A DNA stretch of 64,000 nt from Candidatus Bathyarchaeota archaeon (lineage in GTDB: Archaea; Thermoproteota; Bathyarchaeia; 40CM-2-53-6): contig CAVTBR010000001.1 in NCBI GenBank assembly GCA_963733055.1, positions 192,001 to 256,000 of the forward strand, read 5' to 3'. A program made the translations under genes and the position numbers. Shown here piece after piece: positions 31,557 through 57,967 of this stretch (position 1 is the first letter of the stretch; each line of letters starts with the position of its first letter). The notes below the pieces were generated by a model. The model was not told the origin of the DNA, searched no databases, and saw only the letters and a list, made by a program, of their open reading frames with translations.

Positions 31557-31668
31557 GCCTCGGTGGCTCAGCCTGGTAGATTACCTGTACGGTAACTGGG
31601 AAGCGGCCGCCTCGTAACTAAGGCAAGATAGCGGCAGGTCGCGGGTTCAAACCCCGCCCGAGGCTCCA
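31557..31668 (+). tRNA. tRNA-Thr(CGU) with two introns (31580-31601 at about 22/23; 31617-31629 at 37/38)
   Basis: GCCTCGG/CCGAGGC acceptor stem, GCCGC-CTCGTAA-GCGGC anticodon arm, GGTTCAAAC T-loop, T-CCA end; 77 nt after splicing. Confidence 0.9.
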
Positions 31669-31695: not shown

Positions 31696-31821
31696 TGTGT
31701 TACTGTCGGTTGTAGAAGTTCATGTCGTTTTGGAGAACTGATTGTCGTTTTGCGGAATACTAAATGTCGTCGCAATTTGGAATATTAAATGTCGGAGTTT
31801 GATTCCGTCAGTGAATTGTCG
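31696..31821. repeat. Transposon end: array of putative TnsB-binding repeats
   Basis: TGTCG cores at 31704, 31723, 31743, 31765, 31790 and 31817; the first three read TGTCG(G/T)TT..GAA with 19-20 bp spacing; TGT at 31696, 31698 and 31704 are candidate termini. Confidence 0.75.
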
Positions 31822-32099
31822 CGTCCAATTGGAACAAGCGGCGGTCCAAGATTTTATAATCCGTGCCAATCCAAGAGTCGGGAATCTTGAGGGCTTTGTC
31901 AAGTCCTTGGTTGGTATTTTCACCTGTAAACTTCCGTTTGGTGCTGTGCGGGGGCTTGTGCTTGCACATTATAAGCCTGTAGAGGTAGCCGTCTCGGTCG
32001 GCATGGGTTTCGAAGTGGTTCTGCATATGACTCAGTGATTTCAGAGTACAGACATTAATTGCATATTGTTAATTTCTGTGATGATGAACGGCCACTAAT

Positions 32100-33159
32100 T
32101 TAGACGTTCATCGTTAGTGGCTTGCGATGATCGCTGAGGCATGGAAGATTTGAACTAATTAAATACGAAGATAGTTCAAATTTCCTAAGGAATTTTGGAA
32201 TTCTGTGCGTATATCCATTGTGGGTGAGGTAATTGAACAAGGTAGGATATGAAGTGCGACCAACACATTGACTACCATCGATATGTTGATGATGGGTCAA
32301 ATCGACCAATTGTTCGAGTTCGGCAGAGTCATTCAACACCCCCCAAGCTTGGCCGAGCAAGTCGTAGAAGAGACGCGGATCACACACTTCCTTAGGATAA
32401 TTGTCGAAGTTGGCCATAGCCCCTAGAGATAGGATCACAAACCTCAAAGCGTCGAATAGGTCAGCTACTGTGCCGTCAAAGAGGCACTGTCTGGGAATTC
32501 TCCTGCAGTTTAGCGACTTTAGAAGACCCTTAACCGCAACATAACCAAGGTCGTTAGGATTAACAGCCTTAGTGACCGTGTTCGCGAGCGGAAATCCACA
32601 ACGTGCACATTTGCCTATATCGAAGGTCGGATTTTCATCAAAGGGGTCCAACTGATTGTGGCAGTGGCCACATTCGGAAGCTAGGAGTACGTTGTGCGAG
32701 ACGCAGATAGGTGCAATCCTTAACCTCCAAAACAGACGCAGGTACGGCGTCCTGTCGTGCGCGAAACAGAGCGGACAGTACCATCTTCCATCCCGCCGAG
32801 GAACGATCCAATGAAATGCGCAGATGGCAGTCCTCTTAGCTCCTTTCGTCTCGCTGCGAATTTTGATTACATGCTTGAATGAATGTAAGGTCATTTGTTG
32901 AACAGCGTTCGGCGCCGAGGTAGCGTGCAACAACTTCGTAAGGTCCTCCGTTTGCTTCACTCAAGAAGTCAAGGTCGAACGTAACGCGCTCTTTTCGGCC
33001 CCAGTTGGATGTAGGGATTTTCAGATAGGTGGCCGCGAAATTCGCCGTAGAATAGCAGTTGCCATTGGCTAGCCTAGTAATCCATGATTCCAAGGATTCT
33101 CCGGCCAGAGGTTGCGGATGAATTGGCCCGAATTGATCTGATGCCATTTCTACCAACAA
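32100..33159 (-). CDS. tniQ: TniQ family protein 1; split by a +1 frameshift near 32955
   Basis: PIHPQPLAGESLESWITRLA (first ORF); WYCPLC, WRL..CVSH, CGHC, CARCG Zn motifs (second ORF). Confidence 0.85.
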
Positions 33160-33186: not shown

Positions 33187-34197
33187 TTATCGTATGGTCC
33201 GCAAGGCGTAACGCTCCGAGGCGATTTTCAGGTGGCGATCCATTATTTGCTCTGATTCATCTTTCAGGGCATTGATTGCCGCCGTTTTTACGAGCTTAAG
33301 AATGTTAACTAAGACACCACCTCTTCCACTCGCATCTAGAGACTTGGAGAGGTCGACAATGAGATGAGCCTTTTCCTTTTTGTATAAGCAACTTGCCTTC
33401 TTGAGTGACAGTGTGGATTCAAGTTCCCACAAGAAGTGGCTTAAGTGACGCCCCTCCGTCCACAGCGGTAGCTTCGACACTTCCAGTCTAGTAGTTAGCG
33501 ATTCTTCATCACCAAAAACGATCCCTGCTTCCTCGCTCCCAGCAAAGACTATTGGAATTCGGAGGTAGTTGGAAATATTCCTAATCGCGAATAAGGCTTC
33601 AGATTTCTTCTTTCCACCGTGCAACATGTTGTTTACGTCATCTATCATGAGAAGCCTCACGCGACAGGTGAAGAGTGCGGTAAGGACTCTTCTCTGCTTA
33701 GAGACGACGCTCCCCGCGTCCCAATCCGAATATCCGAACGGTTGAAGGATTGTAGACAATAATTTTCCTTCACCTCCGTTCACCGGAGCGGTCGTTCTAA
33801 GTATGGGTATGATCTCAACGCCGGGCTCGCTTTGTCGCGGGTGTCGGCGTTCGCATTCGTTCAACAGGGCGCTCTTGCCGTTCCCCGGTGCTCCTGTCAG
33901 AAGGACCTTCTGAGTCTCGCCTTGATTGTTGGCTAATTTTTTTCGTCGCGGGTTCCTTTTTTCAAATTCATGAAGCAGTGCGGTCTTTCCATTTCCTGGA
34001 ACGCCGGTAAGCAAAATGTTTTGCGGGCGTAGCGTTCGTGGACGCGACAACAGTTCTTCGAACAGAGAAAGGACAGCGTTCCCTTGTGGGTATGGAATGA
34101 AACTGTCTTCCCAGATCGCTCTAATTCGCTCTTTTAGAGACCAGTTCAGCGTCTTGGCTGTCTTGTCTAGGAGATGTTCATAACCCAATTTTAGCAC
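33187..34197 (-). CDS. tnsC: TnsC/TniB AAA+ ATPase with a tandemly duplicated Walker A segment
   Basis: FIPYP, GVPGNGKT and GAPGNGKS, LLMIDD Walker B, LPLW; overlaps the tnsAB stop. Confidence 0.9.
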   Translation of the reverse strand: MLKLGYEHLLDKTAKTLNWSLKERIRAIWEDSFIPYPQGNAVLSLFEELLSRPRTLRPQNILLTGVPGNGKTALLHEFEKRNPRRKKLANNQGETQKVLLTGAPGNGKSALLNECERRHPRQSEPGVEIIPILRTTAPVNGGEGKLLSTILQPFGYSDWDAGSVVSKQRRVLTALFTCRVRLLMIDDVNNMLHGGKKKSEALFAIRNISNYLRIPIVFAGSEEAGIVFGDEESLTTRLEVSKLPLWTEGRHLSHFLWELESTLSLKKASCLYKKEKAHLIVDLSKSLDASGRGGVLVNILKLVKTAAINALKDESEQIMDRHLKIASERYALRTIR

Positions 34198-36806
34198 TCC
34201 TTTGAGTGGAAGGAGGTTCGAATCTTGGCGTGTTGGTTTTTTGCCGGCGGTTGGTACTCGTCACCGTCGGTTTCCATTGATAGCTTAGGCTCGTTAGTTT
34301 GTGTGATCTTGAATTCATCCGCGATTTCGCGATTCCTTCGTGCGATTTCTGTTTCTTTTCGGACTTTCTTGGTTAAAGAAACCGCATTTTCAACTATCGC
34401 TTGACTTTCCTCATACTGAGAGAAGACGATGCTTGCGGAGGGGCCACGAATTCCCCTCTTTGCTAGGTTTCGTCTGGAAATTTCCCATCTTGTAAGGGGA
34501 ATCGGCTCGTGGTAAATTGTTGTTGAGGGAATTCTGTAGTGCACTTTTTCTTTGGTATCCAGAATCCAGATATGCCGAATGTCCCAGGGATCGTATTTGA
34601 TTGCATGAGCTAGGCTGTTGCCTCTATTGTCCTCACGCGAGAACCTAGCCAGTTTATCTGAATAGTACGTCAAACCTGCGAAATGCACGCCGTCTTTTTG
34701 TATTGTTCGATCTTCCGCGGGAAGAAAGTCTAAGCGGAATTTCTGTTGGTCTTCGAGGTCAAGTTGCCTGGGCATTCCATATTCTTCCACGCCATGTTGC
34801 CATTTCTCTAGTGGAGTCATTCCTCCAAGTTCTTTTTGCGGTGTATGATGATACTGGTCAATGGACTTGACGAAGAAGGTTTCAAACTCATCTTGAGTGA
34901 GGCAAGCTTCTTTTTCAGAATGATACTCACCTCTCTCTTTCACGCTAGACTTTGTTGTACCAGGAAGAGTATGGATGAATTCTCTTTGCAGCGTTCCAAT
35001 AACTCGCTCCACAAGCCCTCCAAATCTTGGATTCCTTAATGGCCTATGTATGATTTGGATGCCCCACGCCGCGCAGCCAGCCAATATGAGATTGGCTGTG
35101 AATTCTTTCGCATTATCGAAATGTAGACCTGCCGGGATGCCGTGGACCGGCCACTCAATTCCGTGTTTGAGAGCGATTTCATCTTTGGGCATGGCGCACA
35201 TCAAGAGAGCAATCCCAACCAGGTAAGCGCTGGGCCTTGCCAGGCTGAAATAGAATCCGGCTAGCATGTGACTGTAAACGTCTATCATTGGCATCACGAA
35301 GGGTCGCCCAACCGATTGCCGCGTTTCAGCGTCAACCAGTATTACGTCCCCAGGCGTGTGATCTACCATGACGGTCTCCAGCGGACGTTGACCCAGGGTA
35401 GATTTGCTCCCAAAAGTGCTGAACCTATTCTCGGCTGCCTGCGAACCTTCACGCGCCTGAGCTTTCGCGCGGGGCTCGATTTCGTTAATTCTATTGTAGA
35501 ACGTTTTCAGGTTAGGGAATTCTAGGTGGTCTTTCTCGGGAAGAACCTTGTTTATCTGTGCGATTGCTTGGGTCAAATGATTGTATGTAGCTACCTTACT
35601 CTTCTTCTGGAGGGTTAAGTAGTGGGTCTCAATTGTCTTGGACATTAATTCGTCTACACGGGGATGAATTCTATGTTTTCCTTTCCCGCCTCGCGTTTCC
35701 GAAGGAAGTAGTCCAGAAGGACCGTGCTCTCTGTAGCTTCGGACTAGTCTCTCAACCTGTCTAGTACTCAGGCGGAGGTACTCGCCGACGTCCGAGCCAA
35801 GTGAGCTTGGCATGCGACCGAGGCGAACTAGGCCCCCAATGATCTCAAGACGTTCTATGAACTTGACGTATTCTTCAGGATCTCGCTGTTGTAGAGCATA
35901 TGCACTTAGCCTTCCTCCTGGGGTGTAATAGGTGTCTGCGCTTACACGATACTCTTCGCCACTTTCCAAACTTTTGATCAGGATACTTTCGGGAATTGTG
36001 TCATCGAGGATTTCATACTTGTGACCTGAGAATTCTATGTCCTTCTGTCCATTTCTGTAGTTACCTCCTTCTTTACCCATATATCGTAGCGGATGAGTCT
36101 CGATCCGTTTCAATAGTTTTTCAAATGGTATTAGGAAGTTTAATGTGCCGACGTTACTTGATTTCAGGGAAACCGTCGCGTCGTCAAGATGTAATGTCGG
36201 CGTTTCCACTATTGATAATCTGTGATCGAAAAGCAGTTTGCAGACTAGCGACCTTCGATCGGACACGGCTAGCTTTGATGAGCATTTTGCCGTAAGTGTT
36301 CTTACCTTTGCTGACGTCGTCTCGTGCAGTGGGGACAGTATTTCCTCTGCTGCGCGGTGGTCGGGCTGATTGATTCTACCTCGGTCATTGACCAGCCTGA
36401 GTATTGCGAGGCGATTTCTCAGCTCGTTGCGCGTAGCGTCTGTGAAAAATGCGTAAACGAATCCGTTGTCGCGACATTCGTTATGAGTTGTGGAGAACAG
36501 TGGAAACCAAGCTGGCCAATTTCTTACCAATTCTAATTCGTACTTAACGTCCACGACGTAATTCGGCGCTATACTCCTCAACAATGTAGCATCGAGAACA
36601 TGTCTCCCGATTCTCGGAGATTGAGGAATTATCTTCTCGATTGTTGGATTATCATCGCATAGGAGGAGGTGGTCATATTCGAGCCAAGATTCATATGCGA
36701 ATGGAGTTTCCATCCGTGACATATAGTAACCTGTAACTGACCTTGTGTTTGGACGGATCCTTCTAAGTGTTTGATCATAGCGATTTACTACAGGGGCCAT
36801 ACACAT
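34191..36806 (-). CDS. tnsAB: TnsA-TnsB fusion transposase
   Basis: N-terminal SVTG..YESWLE...LD...VDVK (TnsA endonuclease); HTH LSTRQVERLV; DDE triad VDHT / FDNAKEF / VERVIG; Mu-C RTIQKDGV, YDPWDI. Confidence 0.9.
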   Translation of the reverse strand: MCMAPVVNRYDQTLRRIRPNTRSVTGYYMSRMETPFAYESWLEYDHLLLCDDNPTIEKIIPQSPRIGRHVLDATLLRSIAPNYVVDVKYELELVRNWPAWFPLFSTTHNECRDNGFVYAFFTDATRNELRNRLAILRLVNDRGRINQPDHRAAEEILSPLHETTSAKVRTLTAKCSSKLAVSDRRSLVCKLLFDHRLSIVETPTLHLDDATVSLKSSNVGTLNFLIPFEKLLKRIETHPLRYMGKEGGNYRNGQKDIEFSGHKYEILDDTIPESILIKSLESGEEYRVSADTYYTPGGRLSAYALQQRDPEEYVKFIERLEIIGGLVRLGRMPSSLGSDVGEYLRLSTRQVERLVRSYREHGPSGLLPSETRGGKGKHRIHPRVDELMSKTIETHYLTLQKKSKVATYNHLTQAIAQINKVLPEKDHLEFPNLKTFYNRINEIEPRAKAQAREGSQAAENRFSTFGSKSTLGQRPLETVMVDHTPGDVILVDAETRQSVGRPFVMPMIDVYSHMLAGFYFSLARPSAYLVGIALLMCAMPKDEIALKHGIEWPVHGIPAGLHFDNAKEFTANLILAGCAAWGIQIIHRPLRNPRFGGLVERVIGTLQREFIHTLPGTTKSSVKERGEYHSEKEACLTQDEFETFFVKSIDQYHHTPQKELGGMTPLEKWQHGVEEYGMPRQLDLEDQQKFRLDFLPAEDRTIQKDGVHFAGLTYYSDKLARFSREDNRGNSLAHAIKYDPWDIRHIWILDTKEKVHYRIPSTTIYHEPIPLTRWEISRRNLAKRGIRGPSASIVFSQYEESQAIVENAVSLTKKVRKETEIARRNREIADEFKITQTNEPKLSMETDGDEYQPPAKNQHAKIRTSFHSKEC

Positions 36807-36816
36807 AGAGTATTTC

Positions 36817-36885
36817 TCACTCGCCTAGAGTGAATACCGCAACTATATAAGGTCTATTACACATTAAGTATGTGTTGTGCACACA
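36817..36885. promoter_or_regulatory. Divergent promoter region between tnsAB and the HTH gene
   Basis: TCACTC-N5-GAGTGA (36817-36833), TATATAA (36844-36850), TGTGT-N5-ACACA (36871-36885). Confidence 0.45.
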
Positions 36886-36889
36886 GAGT

Positions 36890-37648
36890 ATGACTGAAGA
36901 TTTATCCACGAGCCCATTGCTGGCGAGACTACTTCGCCTTGTAAGAACATCTCCTTCAGGAATAACATCAAGCCAAGCGGCAAAGCAATTGGGAAAACAA
37001 TTGGCCAGCGTCTATGCAGGCTTATCTCAGCTTCAAGAGAGAGGTTTGATCGATATAGGGGAGTCCATCGATAAACGTGAAACGGTTTTCGTGATATCCA
37101 GCGAATCTAAGAGACGCAAAGCTGACTCGATTCTCTCAGATCTAAAGTCAGTTAAATTAACTGGAAAATCGCTGCACTACGTAATGTCAGATTTTGAAGA
37201 GAGAATAACCAGCCGGCTCAACAAAACTCTGCCAGACAGCAAGGTGCAGCAATCAGGAAGAGATGACCTGCCCAACATTATCATATCCTGCGATAACAAA
37301 TTTCATGGCGTAGACCTTTACCCTGGATATCAATGGCACACAGCCCAGGCAGATCGCGCGTCTGGAAAACTCATGCGATTGGGTGCAACCCTCACATTCA
37401 GATCCCTGCACGGGGTGATTCTTGGTAAGCCTGAGGGAGAACCTGAGCCCGATTCACACTTCTCAAGCCTTCAGTACTTAAGACATTATGAATACGTAGG
37501 AAAGGAGTTGTCAACACGCTTCAACGTGATTATTGTTCCAGAAATCGATATCTTTGCTTTGCTGCCGGAAGACGAAGAGCTCGACAGAATAATTACAACC
37601 AAGATCGCAAAGCCTATTGCAGCGCGATGTAACGAATGGAACTCCTAG
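36890..37648 (+). CDS. Winged-HTH protein with an unknown C-terminal domain, putative transposon regulator
   Basis: GITSSQAAKQLGKQLASVYAGLSQLQERGLI; divergent from tnsAB. Confidence 0.65.
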   Translation: MTEDLSTSPLLARLLRLVRTSPSGITSSQAAKQLGKQLASVYAGLSQLQERGLIDIGESIDKRETVFVISSESKRRKADSILSDLKSVKLTGKSLHYVMSDFEERITSRLNKTLPDSKVQQSGRDDLPNIIISCDNKFHGVDLYPGYQWHTAQADRASGKLMRLGATLTFRSLHGVILGKPEGEPEPDSHFSSLQYLRHYEYVGKELSTRFNVIIVPEIDIFALLPEDEELDRIITTKIAKPIAARCNEWNS

Positions 37649-37688: not shown

Positions 37689-38906
37689 CTACGTCCGGTT
37701 GCATTTCAGATATCGATGAGACCTTCCTAGATACGTTGCAATCGCCCCTACCGATGGATTGAGGCCCCTTTCCCGCAACATTCTGATGGCGTTTTGGATC
37801 TCCGCTTCTTTCCTAAGTCTGAACCTGCTCTGTCCCTCGAGTACTATCGCATTCACTCTTGCGTCGCTCTTCACACGCCCGAAACTGACTTCAGCAATTC
37901 TAGAGACAGCTCTCAGAGAGATAGGCGCATTCGTTTCCAGTAAATCTTGGACTGCCTGTCCTACTCTATCTTGGGGTGAACGATCTTTGACATTACGTGA
38001 ATTTTCGATCTTAGATTCAACGTTGATCCGTTCTTGTTCGATCCCATTGCGGATGAGATGGACTAGTTTCTTGGGCAAATGGATGCCATACTCAGCTTGT
38101 AGTCTTTTGAATCTAGCTTTGTTGGCACGCACAAACGTCTCTATATTTTTGGGCCAGTTTTCAACAAGACCAAGTGCTCTTTCAATCAATAGCGCCGCGA
38201 CAGCCTCATTCTCCCGCCAATCGAAAGGCGGTTTGGTAGGAAAACCGTGGGATTTCAGAGACTCAATCCAAGACGGTTCGCGTTGCAGGTAGAGATTCAG
38301 GTATCTCACTAGGGCAAGAAGGACAAGGAAACAATCCTGTGCACTCTCCGGCCAACCAAAGCTCTCGAAGAGAGCTTGCGATTCGAGAATTTGAATTCCC
38401 CAAGAACCGAGCCGTGACAACCGCGGGCAATTGATTGGCCTAACCAGGGGCCTTGCTGTCAGATCAGTCGTACCTCTCGCAGAGCTCCTTTGCAGGACTA
38501 CCCCGTGACGACTGCAGACAGGAAGGAACAAAAGTCGCCACACAAGCCTCGGGTAGGATCCTTCCGTTTGTAAGCAGGCCGGACAGTACCTGATTACCTC
38601 TCGCGAAGAAACCCAACCTTTTCGATCCATTACATTATAGGGCTCAGAGATTACGTCCCTCCATGGCGTTAATGCCATCCTCCACAACTTGTCGATTCCA
38701 CCTTGGACATGTGCCACGTTGGCGAGTATGTTCAGGTCACCTCGTTTCAGGAAATCGAGATCTCTGTATCTCCAGTCAGCCTCATTGAGGTACCATGACA
38801 GCAGCTGTCGAATCGTGATGCCGTTAGATATTGCAATCCGGTTGATCCACGATGTGATCGACTCACCTTCACGAGGTTGCGGGTGTATAGGGAGGCGCCC
38901 ATCCAC
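37689..38906 (-). CDS. tniQ: TniQ/TnsD-like protein 2 with two C-terminal HTH repeats
   Basis: LPIHPQPREGESITSWINRIA, RYCPACL, WRL..CSRH; C-terminal ISLRAVSRIAEVS and PSVGAIATYLGRS. Confidence 0.85.
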   Translation of the reverse strand: MDGRLPIHPQPREGESITSWINRIAISNGITIRQLLSWYLNEADWRYRDLDFLKRGDLNILANVAHVQGGIDKLWRMALTPWRDVISEPYNVMDRKGWVSSREVIRYCPACLQTEGSYPRLVWRLLFLPVCSRHGVVLQRSSARGTTDLTARPLVRPINCPRLSRLGSWGIQILESQALFESFGWPESAQDCFLVLLALVRYLNLYLQREPSWIESLKSHGFPTKPPFDWRENEAVAALLIERALGLVENWPKNIETFVRANKARFKRLQAEYGIHLPKKLVHLIRNGIEQERINVESKIENSRNVKDRSPQDRVGQAVQDLLETNAPISLRAVSRIAEVSFGRVKSDARVNAIVLEGQSRFRLRKEAEIQNAIRMLRERGLNPSVGAIATYLGRSHRYLKCNRT

Positions 38907-39603
38907 TCAGGCCTTCCCTCCCTTGGCTGGGCAAATTTGAACGAATGGGCAGTACCTGCACCAAGTGGAAGGCTCAGGTTCAGGAATGACAGATGCCTGG
39001 AATGCTCGATGAAGGGTCGTCGCTCGCTTGATCATCCATTCCTTGCGGTTCCCGAGTGGGACTTCTTTAGGAATAATTTCCTTGTCGTCCGCGTAAATCA
39101 ATACCAGCCGATTAACCGCGATCCCATATCGTTCGAGTAGTGTGGCGTAACATTGAACCTGCTCGATGTGGTTCTCGCGTGGGATGTGCCCTTTCTCTGC
39201 TTGCCACCGTGCAAATCGAGTTGTCTTTAGGTCGTAGACGGTCGCGGTCTCAGGCTCGAATGCGTCAACGTATCCGACGACAGTGATGGTCGCATCGCCG
39301 AGTTGGAACGACATTTTGACACGTAGCTCGCTCCAGCCGAGAGACCTGACCGTGTAATGGAGTAGAGTGCCACGAAGTTTAGCCCATGCAGACCCGACGG
39401 GTTCGTTCACGGGGGAGGTTGTTGCGAAGTATGCTTTCGCTGGGCAGTTCGTGAGAGTTGAAACGTGATAGGTGTTAGGTTGCGGTGGAAATCGTTGCCA
39501 TGTCATTCGACTCCAGAACGAGGCTGGAAGCAGTTCGTTGCAGTAGGGACAGTTGAGTACGTCACGATTATGAGAACATGTCAGTGAAATTGCGAGATTT
39601 CAT
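38907..39603 (-). CDS. Cas4-like PD-(D/E)XK nuclease with four Fe-S cysteines; probable +1 frameshift just after ATG-39603
   Basis: NCP, RGTLLH, GYVD, YDLKT, QVQCY, CRYCPFVQIC; GGAGG RBS before ATG 39603; its stop directly abuts the tniQ2 start. Confidence 0.8.
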
Positions 39604-39840
39604 ATCCTCCTATCTCTCTAACCTAAGCTATAGTTCGATGACCTTCGCCCGTACACCGAGTATAACCCGGATCTCTTCGGCAACTTCCCAGGCATTACGC
39701 TTCTTTACTTCGACAATTACAATTGCTGTCCCGTGCGTTGTTTCAATACCATCAGTTACCAATCGTTACCATCCTTCACCACATTCTATCAGGCAACCTC
39801 TATAAGTCTTATGGTGATTACATCATGTGGATGGTGAACT

Positions 39841-40020
39841 GTGGTGGCCGGAGAAGTAGAGGTCGCATTTGTCAAGGTTCAGCCGCAAGCCAGAGGCAAC
39901 TATATGGTAACGGTCCCTAGCGAAGCAGTCAAAATGCTTGGAATCAAGGACAACGAGAGGACCAAGGTGTACGTTGACAAGGAAAAGAAGAGAATCATAT
40001 TCGAACTGGTTAAACCCTGA
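39841..40020 (+). CDS. AbrB/MazE/SpoVT-family DNA-binding microprotein (not in ORF track)
   Basis: FVKVQPQARGNYMVTVPSEAVKMLGIKDNERTKVYVDKEKKRIIFELVKP. Confidence 0.75.
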   Translation: MVAGEVEVAFVKVQPQARGNYMVTVPSEAVKMLGIKDNERTKVYVDKEKKRIIFELVKP

Positions 40021-40139: not shown

Positions 40140-41303
40140 TCAGACGTTGGTCTTCGAACGGGTCAACAATTCGAAATCGTGCTTGCTTATCCGACGCGTT
40201 CCGATTACAAACCATCCCCAAGCCTGATTCGGGTCTCTATCCCTGAAAGCTTCTAACTGATTTCGGAGCGCAGCATCGATGACTACTGGATTCTGAATGT
40301 AGAGCTGCGGGCCACTAAGAGCAAACGAGTATGGATATTCTTCCGGATGTCGCACTTTTGGATGCGCTTTCTTCTCAGGTTTCGTTAAGACTTTGGCATG
40401 AGCAACAACGCCGATCGCACTAGCATAGAAGCAAATCCAATCATCCGGCTTCAGGTCTTTTCTTCCCGGAGTTCTTTCACCGAAGGCGAACACCTTGTGT
40501 TCACCCACCAGTTCCTTGATCTCACCCTCCGCTGATTGCGCCTCATAGGATTTCACAGGAGAGAGCCAGTACGAGGCTTCACCAGCTTCCGACGGAATAG
40601 TCGGTGAAGCTTGAGGTAATTCGGCTGGTTCGGCAATTAGACCCTTCATTATGTCGACTGCGGGGTCGATTCGGGGAGTAGGACGCAGCAACTCTAGGAT
40701 TTTTTCATCGTCAAGTTCGTACTCCTCCTTTAGCTCGGCGAGAGACAGCAGAGACTCGACGGAGATGATTCGCAACCTATCTGAGTTCTTCTCAGCAAGT
40801 ATATTCTTTTCAATTTGACGAACTTCCGGGTCGGGACGCCCGACTACGTACAAACCCAACGCATCATTCGAGCTGGAAATCTTCTTTTCGGAAATGAGGT
40901 CGTTCATGTAGTTTAGAAGGGAAGCGGTCTTAATTGGGTGCGACTCGCTAGTCTTCACTTCTAGGACAATGGCGAACCCTGATGCGGACCTCCAAAGTCC
41001 GTCGTAACCAATTTGTCCTGGAACGCCCATGTAGCGTCCAAATTCAACTTCTTTGAATCCCAGAAATTGTCCGGCGTGTGTTACGAGGTCTTGAAGTGCA
41101 CGATTGAATCGAGTGTGAGTTCTCTTGTCTTTCTCCGCGGCGCTGAGTCTAAGGCATTCGTCGATGTAATCTCGAACTTGACCGACCTCCACAACGCTTC
41201 CCTTTAGGAAATTCAGAAATCGTCCACGGGCAGTGTCCTCACCTGAGGAATCGTCGAGTGTTCCAAGCAGTTCTAGAATGACCTTTAGACTGGTCGAACT
41301 CAT
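40140..41303 (-). CDS. PD-(D/E)XK endonuclease fused to an EVE/PUA-like domain
   Basis: GYDGLW...LEVKTS; C-terminal YWL...RKDLKPDDWICFYA...RRISKHDFELL. Confidence 0.7.
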   Translation of the reverse strand: MSSTSLKVILELLGTLDDSSGEDTARGRFLNFLKGSVVEVGQVRDYIDECLRLSAAEKDKRTHTRFNRALQDLVTHAGQFLGFKEVEFGRYMGVPGQIGYDGLWRSASGFAIVLEVKTSESHPIKTASLLNYMNDLISEKKISSSNDALGLYVVGRPDPEVRQIEKNILAEKNSDRLRIISVESLLSLAELKEEYELDDEKILELLRPTPRIDPAVDIMKGLIAEPAELPQASPTIPSEAGEASYWLSPVKSYEAQSAEGEIKELVGEHKVFAFGERTPGRKDLKPDDWICFYASAIGVVAHAKVLTKPEKKAHPKVRHPEEYPYSFALSGPQLYIQNPVVIDAALRNQLEAFRDRDPNQAWGWFVIGTRRISKHDFELLTRSKTNV

Positions 41304-41622
41304 ACTTTCACTTCGAGTATGACCGCTCTCATATATCGTAAGGATTGAGTTAACCGTTTTGACAGATATCTGGCTCTGTTAACGTTCAGGCCAACTTGGT
41401 TCGAGCGATCGACCGAGCCGACTTAGAAGCGCATAACCTACGATGGTTCCTCAATTCTGCCTAACCGTCACCGTCACCACTTCAAACGCCTTTTGTATTC
41501 GTCCCAAGACCGTAGCGCTAACGCGAGTAGTTCTCCGTGTAGTAGCCGCGAGTATGATAACAACACTAGGCACCCGCGTCGAATCAAAAGACACAACTCC
41601 ATGCGCGACTGATAGTAGGAGC

Positions 41623-42099
41623 ATGGATTCTGCACCCACCCTAGACGATGCGATTCTCTTTGCCGCGCAGAAGCATCATGGCAAGAGAGACAAGGTCGGA
41701 CCCTACATACTTCACGTGCTTTCTGTCATGTTTCGGCTGGGGTCTGATGAAGAACGCATGGCCGGTGTCTTGCATGACATCGTTGAAGAGACGGATGTTA
41801 CTCTCGAGCAATTGAAGGAACTTGGGTATCCAGATCGTATCGTTGAGGCCATTGATCTTCTCACGTGGCGCAAGGAGCAGGAATCCTATGAGCAGCATAT
41901 TCAGAGATTGAAACCGAATCCACTCGCGGCAAGCGTGAAGAGAGCTGACCTCGAAGATCATCTCACACCCATTATCGGTGGTGGAGGGACTTGGCTCGAA
42001 GAGAACTATCCTAACCTCTACGAGAGATACCAGAAAGCCCTGCAAGAACTAGGCCAAAGGTCTTCCAACCCTACCCGAAGTGCCGAAGTCTGGTACTGA
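41623..42099 (+). CDS. Stand-alone RelA/SpoT-type HD hydrolase (Mesh1/SAH-like)
   Basis: FAAQKHHG..DK..PYILH, VLHDIVE, VKRAD; AGGAG RBS before ATG 41623. Confidence 0.8.
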   Translation: MDSAPTLDDAILFAAQKHHGKRDKVGPYILHVLSVMFRLGSDEERMAGVLHDIVEETDVTLEQLKELGYPDRIVEAIDLLTWRKEQESYEQHIQRLKPNPLAASVKRADLEDHLTPIIGGGGTWLEENYPNLYERYQKALQELGQRSSNPTRSAEVWY

Positions 42100-42148
42100 A
42101 ATACAGAATGCGAGATTCTATAGGGAAGCGTGCCAGAAGAACGAACCG

Positions 42149-42754
42149 TCAATCTTCGCTACTGTTTTGCCTCATCCCAGCAGGATCGAATCTTGTGTTT
42201 CGGAGAATAGAGTACAGCGACTTGCTTTGCAGTGGGCCTCTCAACTCGTAAATGTCGGGGTTATGAGGGGATACAGTGAAGCCGTATTCGATCAAGATGT
42301 GGCGAACGGCATCTTCATCAAGCGTCCATGGCTCCTTCCGATTGTTGAAAATTACCTTGAAGTTGAGGACGGTCACTTTGTTAGTGCCGGGCGTTAGAAG
42401 GCTAATGGTGACAAGCTCATGCAGTCCATTCTTCAAGTACTTGACATCTTCAATAGCGCCGGCCAGCAGGCTACCTTGGTTAGCCTTCGCATACTCTTCC
42501 ATCTGCCTTGATGGCTCATCATTTTTCCCGCTGAAGAAGAACGCGTGGGTTTTCCCTTGCTGAGCTTCCTCGGATGGAGGCATGACGCGTCTAATTTCAC
42601 CGCTAGGGCTCTTGATGTACACTCTGTCCTGTATTCCACCTGGACCTTGTCCCCCGGAGTCAGAGGAGGGCTGCAACTCCTCGAGCCTCTTGAGTTTCCT
42701 GTAAGCTGCATGGGCAGCTGCGTATTCGCTGAAATACCCGCCCAGTCGAACCAT
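42149..42754 (-). CDS. Hypothetical protein
   Basis: Longest ORF in the interval; no motif recognised. Confidence 0.45.
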   Translation of the reverse strand: MVRLGGYFSEYAAAHAAYRKLKRLEELQPSSDSGGQGPGGIQDRVYIKSPSGEIRRVMPPSEEAQQGKTHAFFFSGKNDEPSRQMEEYAKANQGSLLAGAIEDVKYLKNGLHELVTISLLTPGTNKVTVLNFKVIFNNRKEPWTLDEDAVRHILIEYGFTVSPHNPDIYELRGPLQSKSLYSILRNTRFDPAGMRQNSSED

Positions 42755-43003
42755 TTGCGCGTCAATATCGAAAGCGTCCTTGCTGAAGACTTCCCATTGC
42801 TTCTTGATTAGTTACCATAAGAATTCTATCAATAGGCTTGAAAGCAAAGAAACAGATTACCGGAATAATCAGTGAAGTCAGGTTTGCCCTGCTGTTTTCG
42901 TGAGATTTTAGTTGATTAATGGCTTAGGGCTTGCATCATCACTAGTCTTTGGTGAATCATTCTCAGATAGATAGGATTCTTATTTGCATGATAAAGAGTA
43001 GAT

Positions 43004-44338
43004 GTGGACGCGCTGCCTTTGGTCAGTCTAACATTCTACGGCGGAGTTGGAGAGATCGGCGGCAACAAGATCCTCCTAGAAGATAAGGATACGAAGATCC
43101 TCCTCGATTTCGGAATGAACTTTGCTGGACGCTCGAAATTCTACTCAGAGCCTTTCCTAGCGCCACGCAACGAGAGAGGACTCGTTGAATTAGGTCTATT
43201 ACCAAACATACCTGGAGCGTACAGATTCGAGGAAACTCAACCCGACATAGACGCCGTCTTCCTATCCCATTCTCACACAGATCATTCATCCTACATCACA
43301 TTCCTCAACCGGCAAATTCCAATCTACTGCGGCGAAACTACGGCAACAATCATACAAGGATTCAATGAGATCACGCCGAAAAGCTTCGACAACGACCTCG
43401 AAGGACTACAATTCAGAACATTCCGCACCGGAGACAAAGTCAAAGTTGGATCAGTGGAAGTTGAACCAATCCACGTCGACCATTCAGTCCCAGGCGCGTA
43501 TGGATTCATTATTCACACAACTGAAGGCGCAGTAATCTACTCCGGAGACTTCCGAATACATGGCACCAAATCTGAAATGACCCATGACTTCGTAAACGCC
43601 GCTGCTGAAAGCAGACCCATAGCTATGCTCTGCGAAGGAACGAACCTAATCGGAGCCGATTTCTCAACTGAGAAGGAAGTCAACGAAAAGATAGACAAAG
43701 TGGTCAGCACGTCACAGAATCTAGTGCTTGCCAGCTTTCGTCACACGGACGTTGATCGTACCAGGACTCTTTATGAAGTCGCCAAACGTAACCAACGTAA
43801 ACTCGCCATTTCTCTTAGACAGGCGTACATGCTGAACAAACTTAAGGAAGATAAGCATCTGGACCTACCGTCAGTTGCCTCGAACGATTTTCTAATCTTC
43901 AAACGAGAGAAGAAGTCGTACTACAAGTGGGAGAAGACCATTCTAGATTTCCCAAACGTAGTAGACGCGCAAGAGGTAAAACGAATGCAAAGTCACTTAA
44001 TCCTTGCAACCGGCTTCTCTGATCTGAAGGAGTTGGTGGATATGAAGCCCAAATCTGGGAGCACTTTCATCTTATCCACATCCGAACCCTTCAACGAGGA
44101 GATGGAGATCGAGTATGACAAGTTCGTGAATTGGCTCGACCACTTCGGCCTTCCCATGTTTCATATTCATTGCTCTGGTCACATAATGCCAACCGAGATG
44201 AGACAGGCGGTCGCCGAGATTGCTCCGCGCAAATTACATCCCATCCACACTGAACATCCAGAATTATTCGCACGATTCGTATCCGGCCTGACTGACGTGG
44301 AATTGCCTGTAAAAGGTAGGCCACAACAGATTCAATAA
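43004..44338 (+). CDS. MBL/beta-CASP ribonuclease J-like protein
   Basis: GGVGEIGGNKI, HSHTDH, VDHSVPG, SGDFRIHG, CEGT, HCSGH, PIHTE. Confidence 0.88.
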   Translation: MDALPLVSLTFYGGVGEIGGNKILLEDKDTKILLDFGMNFAGRSKFYSEPFLAPRNERGLVELGLLPNIPGAYRFEETQPDIDAVFLSHSHTDHSSYITFLNRQIPIYCGETTATIIQGFNEITPKSFDNDLEGLQFRTFRTGDKVKVGSVEVEPIHVDHSVPGAYGFIIHTTEGAVIYSGDFRIHGTKSEMTHDFVNAAAESRPIAMLCEGTNLIGADFSTEKEVNEKIDKVVSTSQNLVLASFRHTDVDRTRTLYEVAKRNQRKLAISLRQAYMLNKLKEDKHLDLPSVASNDFLIFKREKKSYYKWEKTILDFPNVVDAQEVKRMQSHLILATGFSDLKELVDMKPKSGSTFILSTSEPFNEEMEIEYDKFVNWLDHFGLPMFHIHCSGHIMPTEMRQAVAEIAPRKLHPIHTEHPELFARFVSGLTDVELPVKGRPQQIQ

Positions 44339-44543
44339 TGTGGGAAAAAACTCCACTATGAAAACGCCTACTCATCCAGAATATAGGAGATCAACCAACC
44401 TAGTGATGGTGATGAAGCAAGGCGAGAAGGAAACCTATGCTCGCTGGGGTTTAGCACCTGCAAGGTGTTAGTTGGCTCTCTCGGTTTGTAAGCAATTCGT
44501 TTCGTAGTTTCATCTAAGACCCCCTGTCAAGGATGGATGGCAC

Positions 44544-44595
44544 AACACCCTTTTCTACGGCGACAACATCGACATCCTTGAAGCGGTTCATCCCC
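44544..44595 (+). pseudogene. N-terminal remnant of a beta-class DNA methyltransferase
   Basis: Reads NTLFYGDNIDIL then (+1) KRFIP, breaking off before the expected DLIY.DPPF. Confidence 0.5.
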
Positions 44596-44635
44596 GGTTT
44601 CGTAGTAGCCAAGTTCTCTGGAAAGGGACTCGATT

Positions 44636-46828: not shown

Positions 46829-47030
46829 TCGGGTAGGCGTTGCCCTCTTCGTCGGCGGACTTCTGCTGCTTTGGTCTTGAACTGAGTGGTAGTACGCACC
46901 AGCAATAACACATACTTCCAGGCCGAATTGTTGTTTAATTCGGTTCGCATAGACCAGAACTCCCGTTCGACGCAACGAACTCTATACTATCTCGGGAACA
47001 ATCGATCATCGAACATTTCAGAGAAGGCGA

Positions 47031-47597
47031 CTACCTCTGAATCATTTTCTCTTTCCGTTGCATGCGAAACGCTTTGTTTGCTGTTCCGACGATTGTTCTC
47101 ATAGATCGAGCCGTTGCCGCGCAGTCTACTATGCTACTAACTGTTCCCCATGGGATCCGATTCTTAGCATCCAGCTTGGATCCTACCATGTTCTCCTTCT
47201 TGAGCACAGCGGAATAGAGCTCGTGTTTCTCCAGCACTTTCACCCATTTGCACGCGTTCATTTCATCGGACGAGGGTGGGCGCTCATGAAACAAAGCACC
47301 TATGGTAAAGATATCACCATTAGAACGCACTCTAAACTCCGATTGTTGCACAAACGCTTGGTTGCCTAAAAAGACGCGTTGCGATTCAAGCTCATAAATT
47401 ATCGATCTCAAGTCTTGAGAGCTGACGAGAGCAACGTAGCCTCTTCTGTTAGTCTTGAATCGTCGAGCATCATCAAGGTTTGAAAAAATGTAGTTTCCAG
47501 AAATTCCGAATTTCGCTACAGCTCTCGGAGGCAGCGTGGATCTCTCTTGAACATTCGTTCCGAAATTTCCCACGGCTTGCACAAATGCCACGTACAT
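47031..47597 (-). CDS. Hypothetical protein
   Basis: ORF only; possibly DUF1697-like, uncertain. Confidence 0.4.
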   Translation of the reverse strand: MYVAFVQAVGNFGTNVQERSTLPPRAVAKFGISGNYIFSNLDDARRFKTNRRGYVALVSSQDLRSIIYELESQRVFLGNQAFVQQSEFRVRSNGDIFTIGALFHERPPSSDEMNACKWVKVLEKHELYSAVLKKENMVGSKLDAKNRIPWGTVSSIVDCAATARSMRTIVGTANKAFRMQRKEKMIQR

Positions 47598-47757
47598 GCT
47601 AAGACATTGTTGTGTGGTCTATTATTCTATATCGGACTTTTGTTCGGAGCCCTCACATCTTATAAGACAAAGCCGTGTCGTCGCCGTCGTCGAGGCCAAA
47701 TGAAGAAAGGTTTCGATATCCACGACTTCAACCGCAGCTGGGACCTTGCCTCGCAAT

Positions 47758-49539: not shown

Positions 49540-49570
49540 ATGATAAACCTACCAAAATCAAGCAATCTAC

Positions 49571-52173: not shown

Positions 52174-52207
52174 GTCGTCTTCGATATCGCTTAGGTGGAT
52201 GATGTCG

Positions 52208-55768: not shown

Positions 55769-56030
55769 GGTATTCGCTTGATTTAATTGCTCTTCATTGT
55801 ATCTCTAGGTTATTATTAAAAACTAAAGGCTAGAGTGGTTATTGAATCAAAGTAAGCGACTTACCATTGATTATCAATCTCGATGACGCCTGAGAGATAA
55901 CCAAACTATCGTGCTTGTCATAGTTTCATTCATCTCTGAGCCACCCCAAAATTCCAGTTTCTGAAGACTCAGAGACATCTCATCCAACTCTCCGGGCGTT
56001 ATTTGGTAACATCAGTCTTGTCAAAAATTC

Positions 56031-57898: not shown

Positions 57899-57967
57899 AC
57901 GTTACTCAACACCATTCAACTTGCGAATCATTGCGCGTTACATTAAACCGTGCAAGGTACTGAACGG

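What the first reader, a model, noticed from the sequence alone, without database searches (positions are those of the whole stretch)
37689..40020. Cas4-like nuclease directly abutting the second TniQ: candidate new target-selection module
Seen: the Cas4-like stop codon (38907) is immediately followed by the tniQ2 GTG (38906) with zero gap. The nuclease keeps all catalytic residues and four Fe-S cysteines, and gains an extra C..H..CPYC N-terminus if the +1 error is fixed. A ~44-codon ORF (39628-39762) lies upstream and an AbrB-type regulator is divergent. No cas1, cas2 or array is visible. Established: TniQ proteins are adaptors that pair with varied selectors such as Cascade, Cas12k and TnsF. 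Inference: Cas4-TniQ may steer insertion to DNA ends, ssDNA or replicating MGEs, or process ends. I know of no described Cas4-TniQ pairing.
Basis: partly seen in the sequence, partly recalled or inferred. Interest (0 to 1): 0.82.

Follow-up and report, generated by a model that had tools for sequence, protein, structure and literature searches.

The report
Cas4 nuclease–TniQ pair in archaeal Tn7
A CRISPR-less Cas4-type nuclease gene sits stop-to-start against a second TniQ target-selector gene inside a 34.5 kb Tn7-type jumping element of a probable Bathyarchaeia archaeon, and the pairing recurs in a few related elements, so it is a real module whose role in choosing insertion sites is still untested.

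Summary
A 199-aa Cas4-family ORF (39506..38907, minus strand) ends in TGA directly before the GTG of a 405-aa TniQ (38906..37689). Both lie inside a ~34.5 kb Tn7-family transposon: fused TnsA-TnsB, TnsC and a frameshifted TniQ1, 30 bp downstream of tRNA-Thr(CGU). Its far end lies about 2.2 kb beyond the window.

The adjacency is not chance. A same-genus genome (G325) has the same small ORF, cas4, tniQ2, opposite-strand regulator, tnsAB, tnsC, tniQ1 row, also with a zero-gap junction. Three metagenome Cas4 homologs share a diagnostic C-terminal tail and sit on contigs of the same length as TniQ2 homologs.

The Cas4 family is mostly something else. In 48 of 60 other loci the coupled downstream gene is a SWIM/Zn-ribbon protein related to IS240-type transposase N-termini. 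The window's cas4 is a gene-conversion mosaic: SWIM-type body, TniQ-type flanks. Four of five Cas4-linked TniQ2 genes on record are not full length.

A TnsA-replacement role is rejected because TnsA is present. A described Cas4-TniQ pairing was not found in five literature searches.

Verdict: a real, conserved module and a new variant of a known kind. A target-selection role is plausible but unproven (about 0.4).

The parts
31557..31665 (+). tRNA-Thr (anticodon CGU) with two inserts; presumed attachment site
   Evidence: Rfam tRNA, 40.7 bits. The anticodon was read from the cmscan alignment. ARAGORN missed it.
31696..31840 (.). tRNA-proximal transposon end: terminal TGT at 31696, then six closely spaced TGTCG-containing repeats (R-end-like)
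   Evidence: Sequence. It is the only cluster of 5 or more TGTCG in 150 bp in the 2.88 Mb genome. The 12-mer TACTRAATGTCG occurs 3 times in the genome: here (+) and twice (-) at the other end, C1:258079 and 258124, about window 66,100, outside the window.
32100..33159 (-). tniQ1, split over two frames (33159..32836 and 32960..32100); frameshift near 32,900
   Evidence: Pfam TniQ 2.5e-10. Two TniQ pieces found in the genome search. The G325 homolog reads in one frame.
33187..34197 (-). tnsC (TniB-type AAA+ ATPase), 336 aa
   Evidence: Pfam TniB 1.3e-45.
34191..36806 (-). fused tnsA-tnsB, 871 aa
   Evidence: Residues 341-838 match solved TnsB chains (9.8e-44 to 2e-29). Mu-transpos_C 5.1e-12. Residues 18-131 match NCBIfam TnsA_like at 3.1e-7, below its cut-off. 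Of 28 aligned rows of the N-terminal region (the window's own plus 27 homologs), 23 match Pfam Tn7_TnsA-like_N; the window's own row gave none. E39, D72 and K88 lie in near-invariant columns.
36872..37648 (+). winged-helix (IclR/TrmB-like) regulator on the opposite strand, between tniQ2 and tnsAB
   Evidence: HTH_IclR 7.2e-4, sub-threshold. G325 has a 245-aa TrmB-like gene in the same place and orientation.
37689..38906 (-). tniQ2, 405 aa, intact
   Evidence: Pfam TniQ 5.8e-20. PADLOC TniQ 3e-26. AF2 model pLDDT 81.9; best Foldseek rows are TnsD-TnsC-DNA (8v32_J, E 1.1e-3) and TniQ structures.
38907..39506 (-). solo Cas4-family Fe-S PD-(D/E)XK nuclease, 199-aa ORF; mosaic (body SWIM-type, tail TniQ-type); tail codons K-G-G carry a GGAGG 10 nt before the tniQ2 start
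   Evidence: family; mosaic; junction.
39507..39599 (-). in-frame upstream extension encoding the family's C-x-H...C-x-x-C knuckle, without a canonical start codon
39568..39603 (-). 12-codon uORF behind GGAGGA, +1 relative to the knuckle frame; same length and spacing in G325
39628..39762 (-). conserved small ORF (44 codons) upstream of cas4
   Evidence: 99 nt at 78% DNA identity to G325, and a shared peptide core. No Pfam family.
39841..40020 (+). divergent AbrB/MazE-like small gene; not found in G325
   Evidence: Pfam MazE_antitoxin 1.9e-4, below cut-off. No tblastn hit in the G325 loci.
40140..64000 (.). cargo part of the element; it runs on to about window 66,190, outside the window
   Evidence: Cargo genes: MBL and HD genes, OLD nuclease, a HerA-NurA-Rad50-Mre11-like row and metabolic genes (Pfam and PADLOC). 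The HerA-like gene's best matches in 5 same-genus genomes are 24-28% identical. G305 has DAO, tRNA, then a gene whose G000 counterpart lies beyond the far end.

Best explanation
cas4-tniQ2, preceded by a conserved small ORF, is a genuine, translationally coupled accessory operon of a Bathyarchaeial Tn7-family transposon. The transposon has TnsA-TnsB fused, TnsC and TniQ1, and its attachment site is tRNA-Thr.

The nuclease comes from a CRISPR-less (solo) Cas4 family. Members of that family are normally coupled stop-to-start with a transposase-derived SWIM/Zn-ribbon DNA-binding protein. In one small lineage that partner slot is filled by a TniQ.

My working mechanism has three steps:
1. TniQ2, a TnsD/TniQ-fold adaptor, engages DNA and TnsC as a second targeting route.
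2. The Fe-S PD-(D/E)XK nuclease made with it cuts or trims DNA ends or flaps at the place TniQ2 marks.
3. The pair therefore acts as a nuclease-assisted alternative pathway, not as the homing pathway.

Shown: gene order, junction, conservation, family membership, intact catalytic and cluster residues, and location inside the element.

Inferred: co-translation, physical partnership, and any effect on target choice.
For: 1. Junction:
- TGA|GTG with zero gap in the window and TGA|ATG with zero gap in G325.
- In both, AAGGGAGG inside the last cas4 codons lies 10 nt before the tniQ2 start.

2. Conserved row in G325:
- The order is small ORF, cas4, tniQ2, opposite-strand wHTH gene, tnsAB, tnsC, tniQ1, at the same tRNA.
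- Cas4 is 65% and TniQ2 64% identical to the window's.
- TnsB is about 28-37%, TnsC 31% and TniQ1 40% identical.

3. Tail motif C.YC.F.Q.CPAKG:
- It occurs in 4 of the 120 listed Cas4 homologs: the window's own protein, P0052, P0053 and P0079. It also occurs in G325.
- It occurs in 0 of 58 locus-derived Cas4 proteins.
- Those three homologs are exactly the ones whose contig lengths (4029, 32355, 4948) equal those of TniQ2 homologs P0131, P0126 and P0134.

4. Conservation:
- The four non-mosaic TniQ-linked Cas4s are 79-82% identical to each other.
- Their TniQ2s are 52-63% identical.
- The nuclease is therefore conserved across diverged elements.

5. Parallel coupling elsewhere in the family:
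- The SWIM partner's start overlaps the cas4 stop by 4 nt in 21 of 49 pairs.
- A coupled DNA-binding partner is thus the family's norm, and TniQ2 sits in that slot.

6. Location:
- The pair is inside the element, whose paired ends were found.
- tniQ2 is the only intact TniQ there.

7. Established background:
- TniQ proteins couple varied selectors to TnsC (Faure 2023 passages).
- From recall, no call: Cas4 trims DNA ends for the Cas1-Cas2 integrase.
Against: - No test of binding or targeting exists.
- The window's Cas4 residues 1-160 are 84-87% identical to SWIM-linked Cas4s and only 64-66% to TniQ-linked ones. A foreign nuclease body is therefore tolerated next to TniQ2. That argues against a finely co-adapted complex, or else for decay.
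- Four of the five Cas4-linked TniQ2 genes on record are not full length: G325 is split at residue 209/210, and the others are 374, 266 and 243 aa against 405-445.
- G325's cas4 is frameshifted. However, that assembly also breaks a housekeeping gene into several frames.
- The window's cas4 lacks a canonical start for its knuckle, and tniQ1 is frameshifted.
- For 12 of the 16 other TniQ2 homologs (self left out), no Cas4 homolog on a contig of equal length appears among the 120 listed.
- tniQ2 is separated from tnsAB-tnsC-tniQ1 by an opposite-strand gene.
Confidence: 0.4

Rival explanations
1. Cargo cassette. The Cas4 nuclease (with the small ORF) does on the transposon what it does in Cas4-SWIM cassettes elsewhere, probably defence or DNA-end processing in restriction-modification-rich islands. 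It does not take part in transposition. TniQ2 either merely lies downstream or has been exapted as the nuclease's DNA-binding subunit.
For: - 48 of 60 other loci pair the family with a SWIM/Zn-ribbon gene, and none of them pairs it with a TniQ.
- At least 13 of those loci hold a large DNA-methyltransferase-type gene within 6 kb of cas4, directly behind the cassette in 8. The one representative put to PADLOC matched type IIG enzymes.
- The family is patchy: 9 of 401 class genomes.
- The window's own genome has a second, canonical Cas4-SWIM copy.
- The SWIM-type body was swapped in without loss of the ORF.
- Cas4 is better conserved than TniQ2, and TniQ2 is often broken.
- Tn7-like cargo is typically defence genes (Benler 2021 abstract and passages; Thesier 2025 discussion passage).
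Against: - The zero-gap junction with an internal GGAGG is conserved in both junctions that could be read.
- A tail motif specific to the TniQ-linked copies points to a maintained coupling.
- The pair keeps its place beside the regulator and tnsAB in two elements whose core proteins are only 28-40% identical.
Confidence: 0.33
2. Decaying relic. The element and the pair are no longer functional in this genome, and the conserved layout only reflects common descent.
For: - tniQ1 is frameshifted near 32,900.
- The cas4 knuckle has no start codon.
- cas4, tniQ2 and tnsAB are broken in G325.
- TniQ2 homologs on three contigs are short.
- There is one copy of the element in the genome.
Against: - TnsAB (871 aa), TnsC (336 aa), TniQ2 (405 aa) and the Cas4 core are open and keep their catalytic or cluster residues.
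- TniQ-linked Cas4s stay 79-82% identical.
- G325's assembly also shows frame breaks in a housekeeping gene, so some breaks may be assembly errors.
Confidence: 0.15
3. TnsA substitute. The Cas4-like PD-(D/E)XK nuclease makes the 5'-strand cuts that TnsA makes in Tn7.
For: Both are PD-(D/E)XK nucleases. The gene lies upstream of tnsB. No resolvase turned up in the Pfam scans of most larger ORFs of the element.
Against: - The 871-aa transposase carries its own N-terminal TnsA-like domain: NCBIfam TnsA_like 3.1e-7.
- 23 of the 28 aligned rows match Pfam Tn7_TnsA-like_N.
- E39, D72 and K88 are conserved.
- Fused tnsAB is reported for a Bathyarchaeia element (Thesier 2025, section 7).
Confidence: 0.03
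4. Chance adjacency of a proviral or host gene with tniQ2.
For: Most family members have another neighbour.
Against: - The same junction occurs in G325.
- The tail motif and contig-length coincidences link three more pairs.
- There is no hit in IMG/VR.
- The upstream DNA and small ORF are conserved.
Confidence: 0.02

Closest known systems
Archaeal Tn7-family elements (Thesier et al. 2025, bioRxiv 10.1101/2025.07.27.667033; Clade V, 'Ca. Bathyarchaeia', 15.8 kb)
   Same: Fused tnsAB, tnsC and tniQ; insertion next to a threonine tRNA gene; TGT ends; defence-type cargo (sections 7-8 and passages read).
   Different: The main text has no occurrence of 'Cas4', 'nuclease', 'two tniQ' or 'second tniQ'. 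Its Table 1 and Fig. 2 are images, and the supplements are closed, so a Cas4-like cargo entry there cannot be excluded. The present element is 34.5 kb and has two TniQ genes.
Tn7 with two selectors (TnsD and TnsE) and dual-TniQ CASTs (I-B, I-D)
   Same: Two target-selector genes on one element; one pathway homes to a conserved site, here a tRNA gene (Benler 2021 introduction passage; Faure 2023 passages).
   Different: No TnsE, no Cascade or Cas12k, no CRISPR array. The extra selector gene is coupled to a nuclease that looks active.
Tn6022 TniQ + TnsF, and CAST TniQ + Cascade/Cas12k (TniQ as adaptor for a separate DNA-recognition partner)
   Same: A small TniQ (about 400 aa) encoded beside a non-Tn7 protein recruited from another system (Faure 2023 passages).
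   Different: Those partners are catalytically inactivated DNA binders. Here the partner keeps its nuclease motifs and Fe-S cysteines. No binding has been shown.
Solo-Cas4 / MGE-Cas4 (Hudaiberdiev et al. 2017) and Cas4-family accessory nucleases such as ACE1 with long-A Argonautes (Mol Cell 2025; abstract in the search listing only)
   Same: A Cas4-family nuclease outside CRISPR loci, encoded beside a DNA-targeting protein.
   Different: The 2017 main text has 0 occurrences of 'transposase' or 'SWIM', and its 2 occurrences of 'transposon' refer to casposons. A TniQ or SWIM partner is not described there.
Cas4-SWIM/Zn-ribbon cassettes of Bathyarchaeia (defined here)
   Same: Same nuclease family (55-86% identity) and the same tight downstream coupling.
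   Different: The partner is a 170-200 aa SWIM plus Zn-ribbon protein related to the N-terminus of an IS240-type DDE transposase. It shows no detectable homology to TniQ2 (hhalign probability 1.1%).

Membership tests
Cas4 family (COG1468-type PD-(D/E)XK nuclease with 4Fe-4S cluster) | Profile match above curated thresholds | tested here: met
   Pfam Cas_Cas4 30.6 bits (cut-off 22.7) and PDDEXK_1 42.9 bits (cut-off 22). PADLOC Cas4 3.4e-17. The NCBIfam equivalog TIGR00372 scores only 50 bits against a cut-off of 65, so it is a family member but not an 'equivalog'.
Cas4 family (COG1468-type PD-(D/E)XK nuclease with 4Fe-4S cluster) | RecB-type motifs D...(D/E)xK, QxxxY, and four cluster cysteines (one N-terminal, CxxCx5C C-terminal) | tested here: met
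   D81, D92-L-K94, Q116..Y120, C21, C183, C186, C192 are invariant or conserved in at least 90% of 30 aligned homologs. The motif names are recalled.
Cas4 family (COG1468-type PD-(D/E)XK nuclease with 4Fe-4S cluster) | Association with cas1/cas2 and a CRISPR array (CAS-Cas4 as opposed to solo-Cas4) | tested here: not met
   No Cas1 in the genome, which is 96% complete. No CRISPR-like array in the window. It is therefore a solo-Cas4.
TniQ/TnsD target-selector family | TniQ domain profile match | tested here: met
   PF06527 72.8 bits (cut-off 27), residues 6-138. PADLOC TniQ 3e-26.
TniQ/TnsD target-selector family | TnsD/TniQ-like fold | tested here: inconclusive
   AF2 model pLDDT 81.9. The top Foldseek rows are all TnsD or TniQ chains, but the best E-value is 1.1e-3 and TM-scores normalised to the query are 0.22-0.33.
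TniQ/TnsD target-selector family | Encoded in an element with TnsB and TnsC | tested here: met
   ends.
TniQ/TnsD target-selector family | Binds TnsC and directs insertion | not testable with these tools
   Needs biochemistry or a transposition assay.
Tn7-family transposon | TnsB DDE transposase, TnsC AAA+ regulator and TniQ in one row | tested here: met
Tn7-family transposon | TnsA endonuclease | tested here: met
   Present as an N-terminal domain of the 871-aa protein. The window's own sequence is below the Pfam and NCBIfam cut-offs, so membership rests on homologs: 23 of the 28 aligned rows match Tn7_TnsA-like_N.
Tn7-family transposon | Inverted ends with arrays of transposase-binding repeats, terminal TGT | tested here: met
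   Six repeats at 31696-31840 and five at C1:257996-258170. The shared 12-mer occurs only there in the genome.
Tn7-family transposon | 5-bp target-site duplication | tested here: inconclusive
   The exact far terminus was not fixed. TTCAA precedes the tRNA-side TGT and recurs about 35 bp beyond the last repeat of the far end. That is not a clean TSD.
CRISPR-associated transposon (CAST) | CRISPR effector (Cascade or Cas12k) and guide array on the element | tested here: not met
   Pfam, NCBIfam and PADLOC scans of most ORFs of 110 aa or more in window 32-64 kb, plus two ORFs just beyond the window, found none. No array.

The most novel reading that the evidence does not exclude
The Cas4-family nuclease is the working partner of TniQ2. 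Together they would form a protein-only, nuclease-coupled target selector or target-end processor for an archaeal Tn7 transposon.

More broadly, Bathyarchaeial solo-Cas4 enzymes would be effector nucleases that plug into interchangeable, transposon-derived Zn-finger DNA-binding partners: either an IS240-type SWIM N-domain or a TniQ.
Probability: 0.25. Interest if true: 0.85.

Novelty: new variant of a known kind. Interest (0 to 1): 0.62.

Why it matters
Every Tn7 selector partner I read about in the papers opened here (Cascade, Cas12k, TnsF) is a DNA binder that has lost its cutting activity. A TniQ stably coupled to a nuclease that looks active would be a different logic for choosing or preparing insertion sites. 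It would occur in archaea that, by the 2025 CRISPR classification passage I read, lack CRISPR-Cas altogether.

It would also give a function to a widespread but unexplained solo-Cas4 family and to its SWIM partner.

If the nuclease is only cargo, the locus still has value. It documents a complete 34.5 kb archaeal Tn7 element with both ends, two TniQ genes and a gene-conversion exchange between a transposon-borne gene and its chromosomal paralog family.

Tried and rejected
**Searches and tests that gave nothing usable**
- Other end inside the window: repeat finder, pattern search and BLAST of the tRNA-side end found nothing convincing in 32-64 kb. The end lies outside the window.
- Complex prediction on TniQ2 (alignment A2) plus Cas4 (alignment A1): 'no answer', score 0.00 in both runs, controls not folded. 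This is no evidence either way.
- Expression: no RNA holder was listed for 37600-39800.
- Read laying: contigs of run X1 cover parts of 31.5-39.3 kb without indels. There is no depth over 39357-40200, so the cas4 5' region is not covered. Cover of the tniQ1 frameshift site could not be established.
- IMG/VR: no relative of Cas4 (A1) or TniQ2 (A2).
- Cas4 fusions: no protein of 350-2000 aa scored at E <= 1e-5. The tool itself calls this weak evidence.
- SWIM partner against TniQ2, profile-profile: probability 1.1%. Homology rejected.
- Terminal inverted repeats around Cas4-SWIM cassettes: one 22-nt pair in L012, nothing consistent in 4 other loci. Not claimed.
- G325's far end: not found with the end-repeat pattern or BLAST. 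Why its gene row faces away from the tRNA, while the window's faces towards it, is unexplained.
- TnsA substitution: rejected.
- ESM Atlas for the SWIM partner: only its own Bathyarchaeota 'hypothetical protein' cluster.
- Wider genome searches for TniQ2: 2 of 401 class genomes, 2 of 105 order genomes, 1 of 401 phylum genomes (G000 counted each time).
- The second structure job and the structural check of the TnsA domain were not run.

**Closed sources**
- Supplements, Table 1 and Fig. 2 of Thesier 2025 could not be seen.


Full report
**1. What is at the coordinates**

On the minus strand, an ATG ORF of 199 aa runs 39506..38907 and ends in TGA (38909-38907). The very next base begins the GTG of a 405-aa ORF, 38906..37689.

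The first ORF is a Cas4-family PD-(D/E)XK nuclease:
- Pfam Cas_Cas4 scores 30.6 bits over a 22.7 cut-off, and PDDEXK_1 gives 7.2e-11.
- PADLOC Cas4 gives 3.4e-17.
- The NCBIfam cas4 equivalog scores 50 bits, under its 65 cut-off.
- In a 30-row alignment of homologs, C21, D81, K94 and Y120 are invariant. D92, C183, C186 and C192 are at least 90% conserved.

The second ORF is a TniQ:
- Pfam gives 5.8e-20.
- Its AF2 model (pLDDT 81.9) finds TnsD-TnsC-DNA and TniQ chains as its best, though weak, Foldseek rows.

A short-read contig of run X1 spans the junction (38677-39024) without any difference. No Cas1 was found in the 96%-complete genome, and the window has no CRISPR-like array.

**2. The surroundings: a complete Tn7-family element**

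Downstream on the same strand lie four more genes:
- an opposite-strand winged-helix gene (36872-37648);
- an 871-aa transposase (36806..34191);
- TnsC (34197..33187, Pfam TniB 1.3e-45);
- a TniQ1 split over two frames (33159..32836 and 32960..32100).

The transposase is a TnsA-TnsB fusion:
- Residues 341-838 match solved TnsB chains at 9.8e-44 to 2e-29.
- Residues 18-131 match NCBIfam TnsA_like at 3.1e-7.
- A full-library phmmer of residues 1-340 found 42 relatives. Some are fused 860-950 aa forms and some are free ~240-270 aa proteins.
- Of the 28 aligned rows (the window's own plus 27 of these relatives), 23 match Pfam Tn7_TnsA-like_N; the window's own row gave none.
- E39, D72 and K88 sit in near-invariant columns.

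The element's ends:
- Thirty bases after a tRNA-Thr(CGU) gene (31557-31665), the element begins with TGT (31696) and six TGTCG-type repeats.
- This is the only such cluster in the 2.88 Mb genome.
- The partner end lies outside the window at C1:257996-258190, about window 66,000-66,190.
- The 12-mer TACTRAATGTCG occurs three times in the genome: once at the tRNA side (+) and twice at the far side (-).

The element is therefore about 34.5 kb, and cas4-tniQ2 lies inside it.

Two same-genus genomes have the flanking oxidoreductase gene but none of window 31.7-64 kb within 20 kb of it. In G305 a tRNA-matching segment follows that gene, and the next gene's G000 counterpart lies just beyond the far end. 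The HerA-like cargo gene has only 24-28% matches in five same-genus genomes.

**3. Is the adjacency conserved?**

The Cas4 protein has many close relatives:
- 140 proteins scored at E <= 0.001, and the 120 listed are 55-82% identical.
- One is named Ca. Bathyarchaeia by its source.

In 60 loci fetched with the family profile (3 genome, 57 metagenome), tblastn found no TniQ2 at E <= 1e-5. Instead:
- 48 of the 60 loci carry, directly downstream and on the same strand, a 170-200 aa protein with a SWIM finger and a Zn ribbon.
- In 21 of 49 pairs its start overlaps the cas4 stop by 4 nt.
- In two loci this gene is a full IS240-type DDE transposase with that N-terminus.
- At least 13 loci hold a large DNA-methyltransferase-type gene within 6 kb of cas4, directly behind the cassette in 8. 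The one representative put to PADLOC matched type IIG enzymes.
- The window's own genome holds such a canonical Cas4-SWIM copy.

TniQ2 itself is rare:
- 17 relatives in the 5.8-billion-protein set;
- 2 of 401 class genomes, 2 of 105 order genomes, and 1 of 401 phylum genomes (G000 itself).

The one other genome, G325 (same genus), shows at the same tRNA the row small ORF, cas4, tniQ2, opposite-strand wHTH gene, tnsAB, tnsC, tniQ1:
- Its junction is again zero-gap (TGA|ATG).
- In both genomes AAGGGAGG, within the last cas4 codons, lies 10 nt before the tniQ2 start.
- Cas4 is 65% and TniQ2 64% identical between the two genomes.
- TnsB is 28-37%, TnsC 31% and TniQ1 40% identical.

**4. Three more probable cases**

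I therefore used two independent marks.

- Contig length: Cas4 homologs P0053, P0052 and P0079 sit on contigs of 32,355, 4,029 and 4,948 bp. TniQ2 homologs P0126, P0131 and P0134 sit on contigs of exactly these lengths, all from the same source.
- Tail motif: the C-terminal motif C.YC.F.Q.CPAKG occurs in 4 of the 120 listed Cas4 proteins, namely the window's and exactly those three. It also occurs in G325, and in 0 of 58 locus-derived Cas4s.

Adjacency on those contigs is inferred, not seen.

In the TniQ2 tree:
- the window, P0134, P0131, G325 and P0128 form a 100/100 clade;
- P0126 lies outside it, within a 9-row group whose other members have unknown context.

Among the four non-mosaic pairs, the Cas4s are 79-82% identical and the TniQ2s 52-63%.

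**5. The window's cas4 is a mosaic**

In a 71-row tree the window's Cas4 falls with SWIM-linked copies (17-row clade, SH-aLRT 100). G325, P0052, P0053 and P0079 lie in another clade (12 rows, SH-aLRT 97).

Segment counts explain this:

| Window Cas4 residues | Identity to SWIM-linked copies | Identity to TniQ-linked copies |
|---|---|---|
| 1-160 | 84-87% (e.g. 139/160) | 64-66% |
| 166-199 | 36-42% | 61-71% |

At the DNA level, the 5' flank, the small ORF, the uORF and the knuckle-coding stretch match G325. From about the codons for S-F-W onward the window matches the SWIM type.

The simplest reading is an internal gene-conversion tract of roughly 500 bp from a SWIM-type paralog, with both native flanks kept.

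**6. The start of cas4**

- The family's N-terminal C-x-H...C-x-x-C knuckle is encoded in frame upstream of ATG 39506, but without a canonical start.
- The ATG behind GGAGGA opens a 12-codon uORF in the +1 frame.
- G325 has the same uORF length and the same 25-nt spacing to the Cys codon, and an in-frame GTG where the window has CTG.

In the window the protein may start at ATG 39506 (without the knuckle) or at a non-canonical codon. I could not decide, because no reads cover the site.

**7. How it most likely works**

Shown: a conserved, tightly joined gene pair inside a Tn7-family element; an apparently active solo-Cas4; and a TniQ-fold partner in the slot that a transposase-derived Zn-finger protein fills elsewhere.

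Inferred (0.4): the two are made together and act together, with TniQ2 as a second selector feeding TnsC and the nuclease working on DNA ends at that site.

The main rival (0.33) is that the nuclease is cargo with the same, unknown, probably defence-type role as in Cas4-SWIM cassettes. Points in its favour:
- the mosaic;
- the better conservation of Cas4 than of TniQ2;
- four of five linked TniQ2 genes on record are split or short.

A relic reading (0.15) fits the tniQ1 frameshift and G325's many breaks. However, G325 also breaks a housekeeping gene.

TnsA replacement (0.03) fails on the fused TnsA domain. Chance adjacency (0.02) fails on conservation.

The complex prediction gave no answer and counts for nothing.

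**8. Comparison with what is known**

- Benler 2021 found no Tn7-like transposase in archaea (passage).
- Thesier 2025 (sections 7 and 8 and passages read) reports 16 archaeal elements. One is a 15.8 kb Bathyarchaeia element with fused tnsAB, tnsC and tniQ next to tRNA-Thr. The transposon here is therefore a member of a known kind.
- That text has no 'Cas4', 'nuclease' or 'second tniQ'. Its cargo table is an image and its supplements are closed.
- Faure 2023 mentions Cas4 only as part of a type I-D adaptation module.
- Hudaiberdiev 2017 has no 'transposase' or 'SWIM' in its main text.
- 'Cas4-like' together with 'TniQ' finds two reviews, seen in the listing only.
- The search for TniQ, Cas4 and Tn7-like found 20 papers. 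I opened three of them: Faure 2023, Benler 2021 and the 2025 CRISPR classification.

Within those limits, a Cas4-TniQ operon is not in print.

**9. Verdict**

- The adjacency is conserved.
- The functional claim is open.
- Novelty: new variant of a known kind.
- Interest: 0.62.

Noticed in passing
window 31696-64000 and on to about 66,190 (C1:223696-258190): A complete ~34.5 kb archaeal Tn7-family element with both ends. Its cargo includes an OLD-family nuclease (47758-49539), a HerA-NurA-Rad50-Mre11-like row (49571-55743), MBL and HD genes, an amino-acid permease, a dehydrogenase, an HMGL-like gene and a formamidase-like gene. The HerA-like gene's best matches in five same-genus genomes are only 24-28% identical. 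A ParB-like gene and a TrmB-like gene sit just inside the far end.
   Followed up: partly
window 31557-31665: tRNA-Thr(CGU) with a 28-nt insert in the D-arm region and a 15-nt insert after the anticodon. ARAGORN did not call it; Rfam did. A contig of run X1 covers a variant of this tRNA (4 base differences), followed by a different flank. This may be an unoccupied site in a relative.
   Followed up: partly
loci L004-L063; own genome C1:1567107-1568350 (L078): A conserved two-gene cassette in Bathyarchaeia-like contigs: a solo Cas4 plus a SWIM/Zn-ribbon/coiled-coil protein, joined by a 4-nt overlap. Large type IIG-like methyltransferase genes lie nearby in some loci. In L029 and L040 the partner is a full IS240-type DDE transposase. 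Its function is unknown, and I found no description of it.
   Followed up: partly
window ~32,900 (tniQ1): A one-base frame break splits tniQ1. It is not in a long homopolymer. The G325 homolog is in one frame. Whether the break is real or an assembly error could not be settled.
   Followed up: partly
L076:12768-12900 and L076/L077 (G325:C32): At the same tRNA, G325 carries an element whose end repeats differ (TGTCAnnTCTCATAC type). Its core gene row points away from the tRNA, opposite to the window. Its cargo between the end and cas4 is a C-5 methylase, Vsr, an HATPase gene and a Shedu-like gene. Several genes there, including a housekeeping gene outside the element, are broken into frames.
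   Followed up: partly
window 40140-44338 vs L029/L040/L036: The MBL gene (43004-44338, 80-81% identity), the HD gene (41443-42099, 69%) and orf201 (42149-42754, 54% over 57 residues) upstream of the window's cas4 also occur near SWIM-type cas4 genes on metagenome contigs. This fits a recombination that brought the SWIM-type cas4 body together with neighbouring DNA.
   Followed up: no
window 39568-39603 and L076:17070-17105: A 12-codon uORF behind GGAGGA overlaps the knuckle-coding part of cas4 in the +1 frame. Its length and position are conserved in two genomes whose uORF peptides differ. It may be a translational control or re-initiation device.
   Followed up: no
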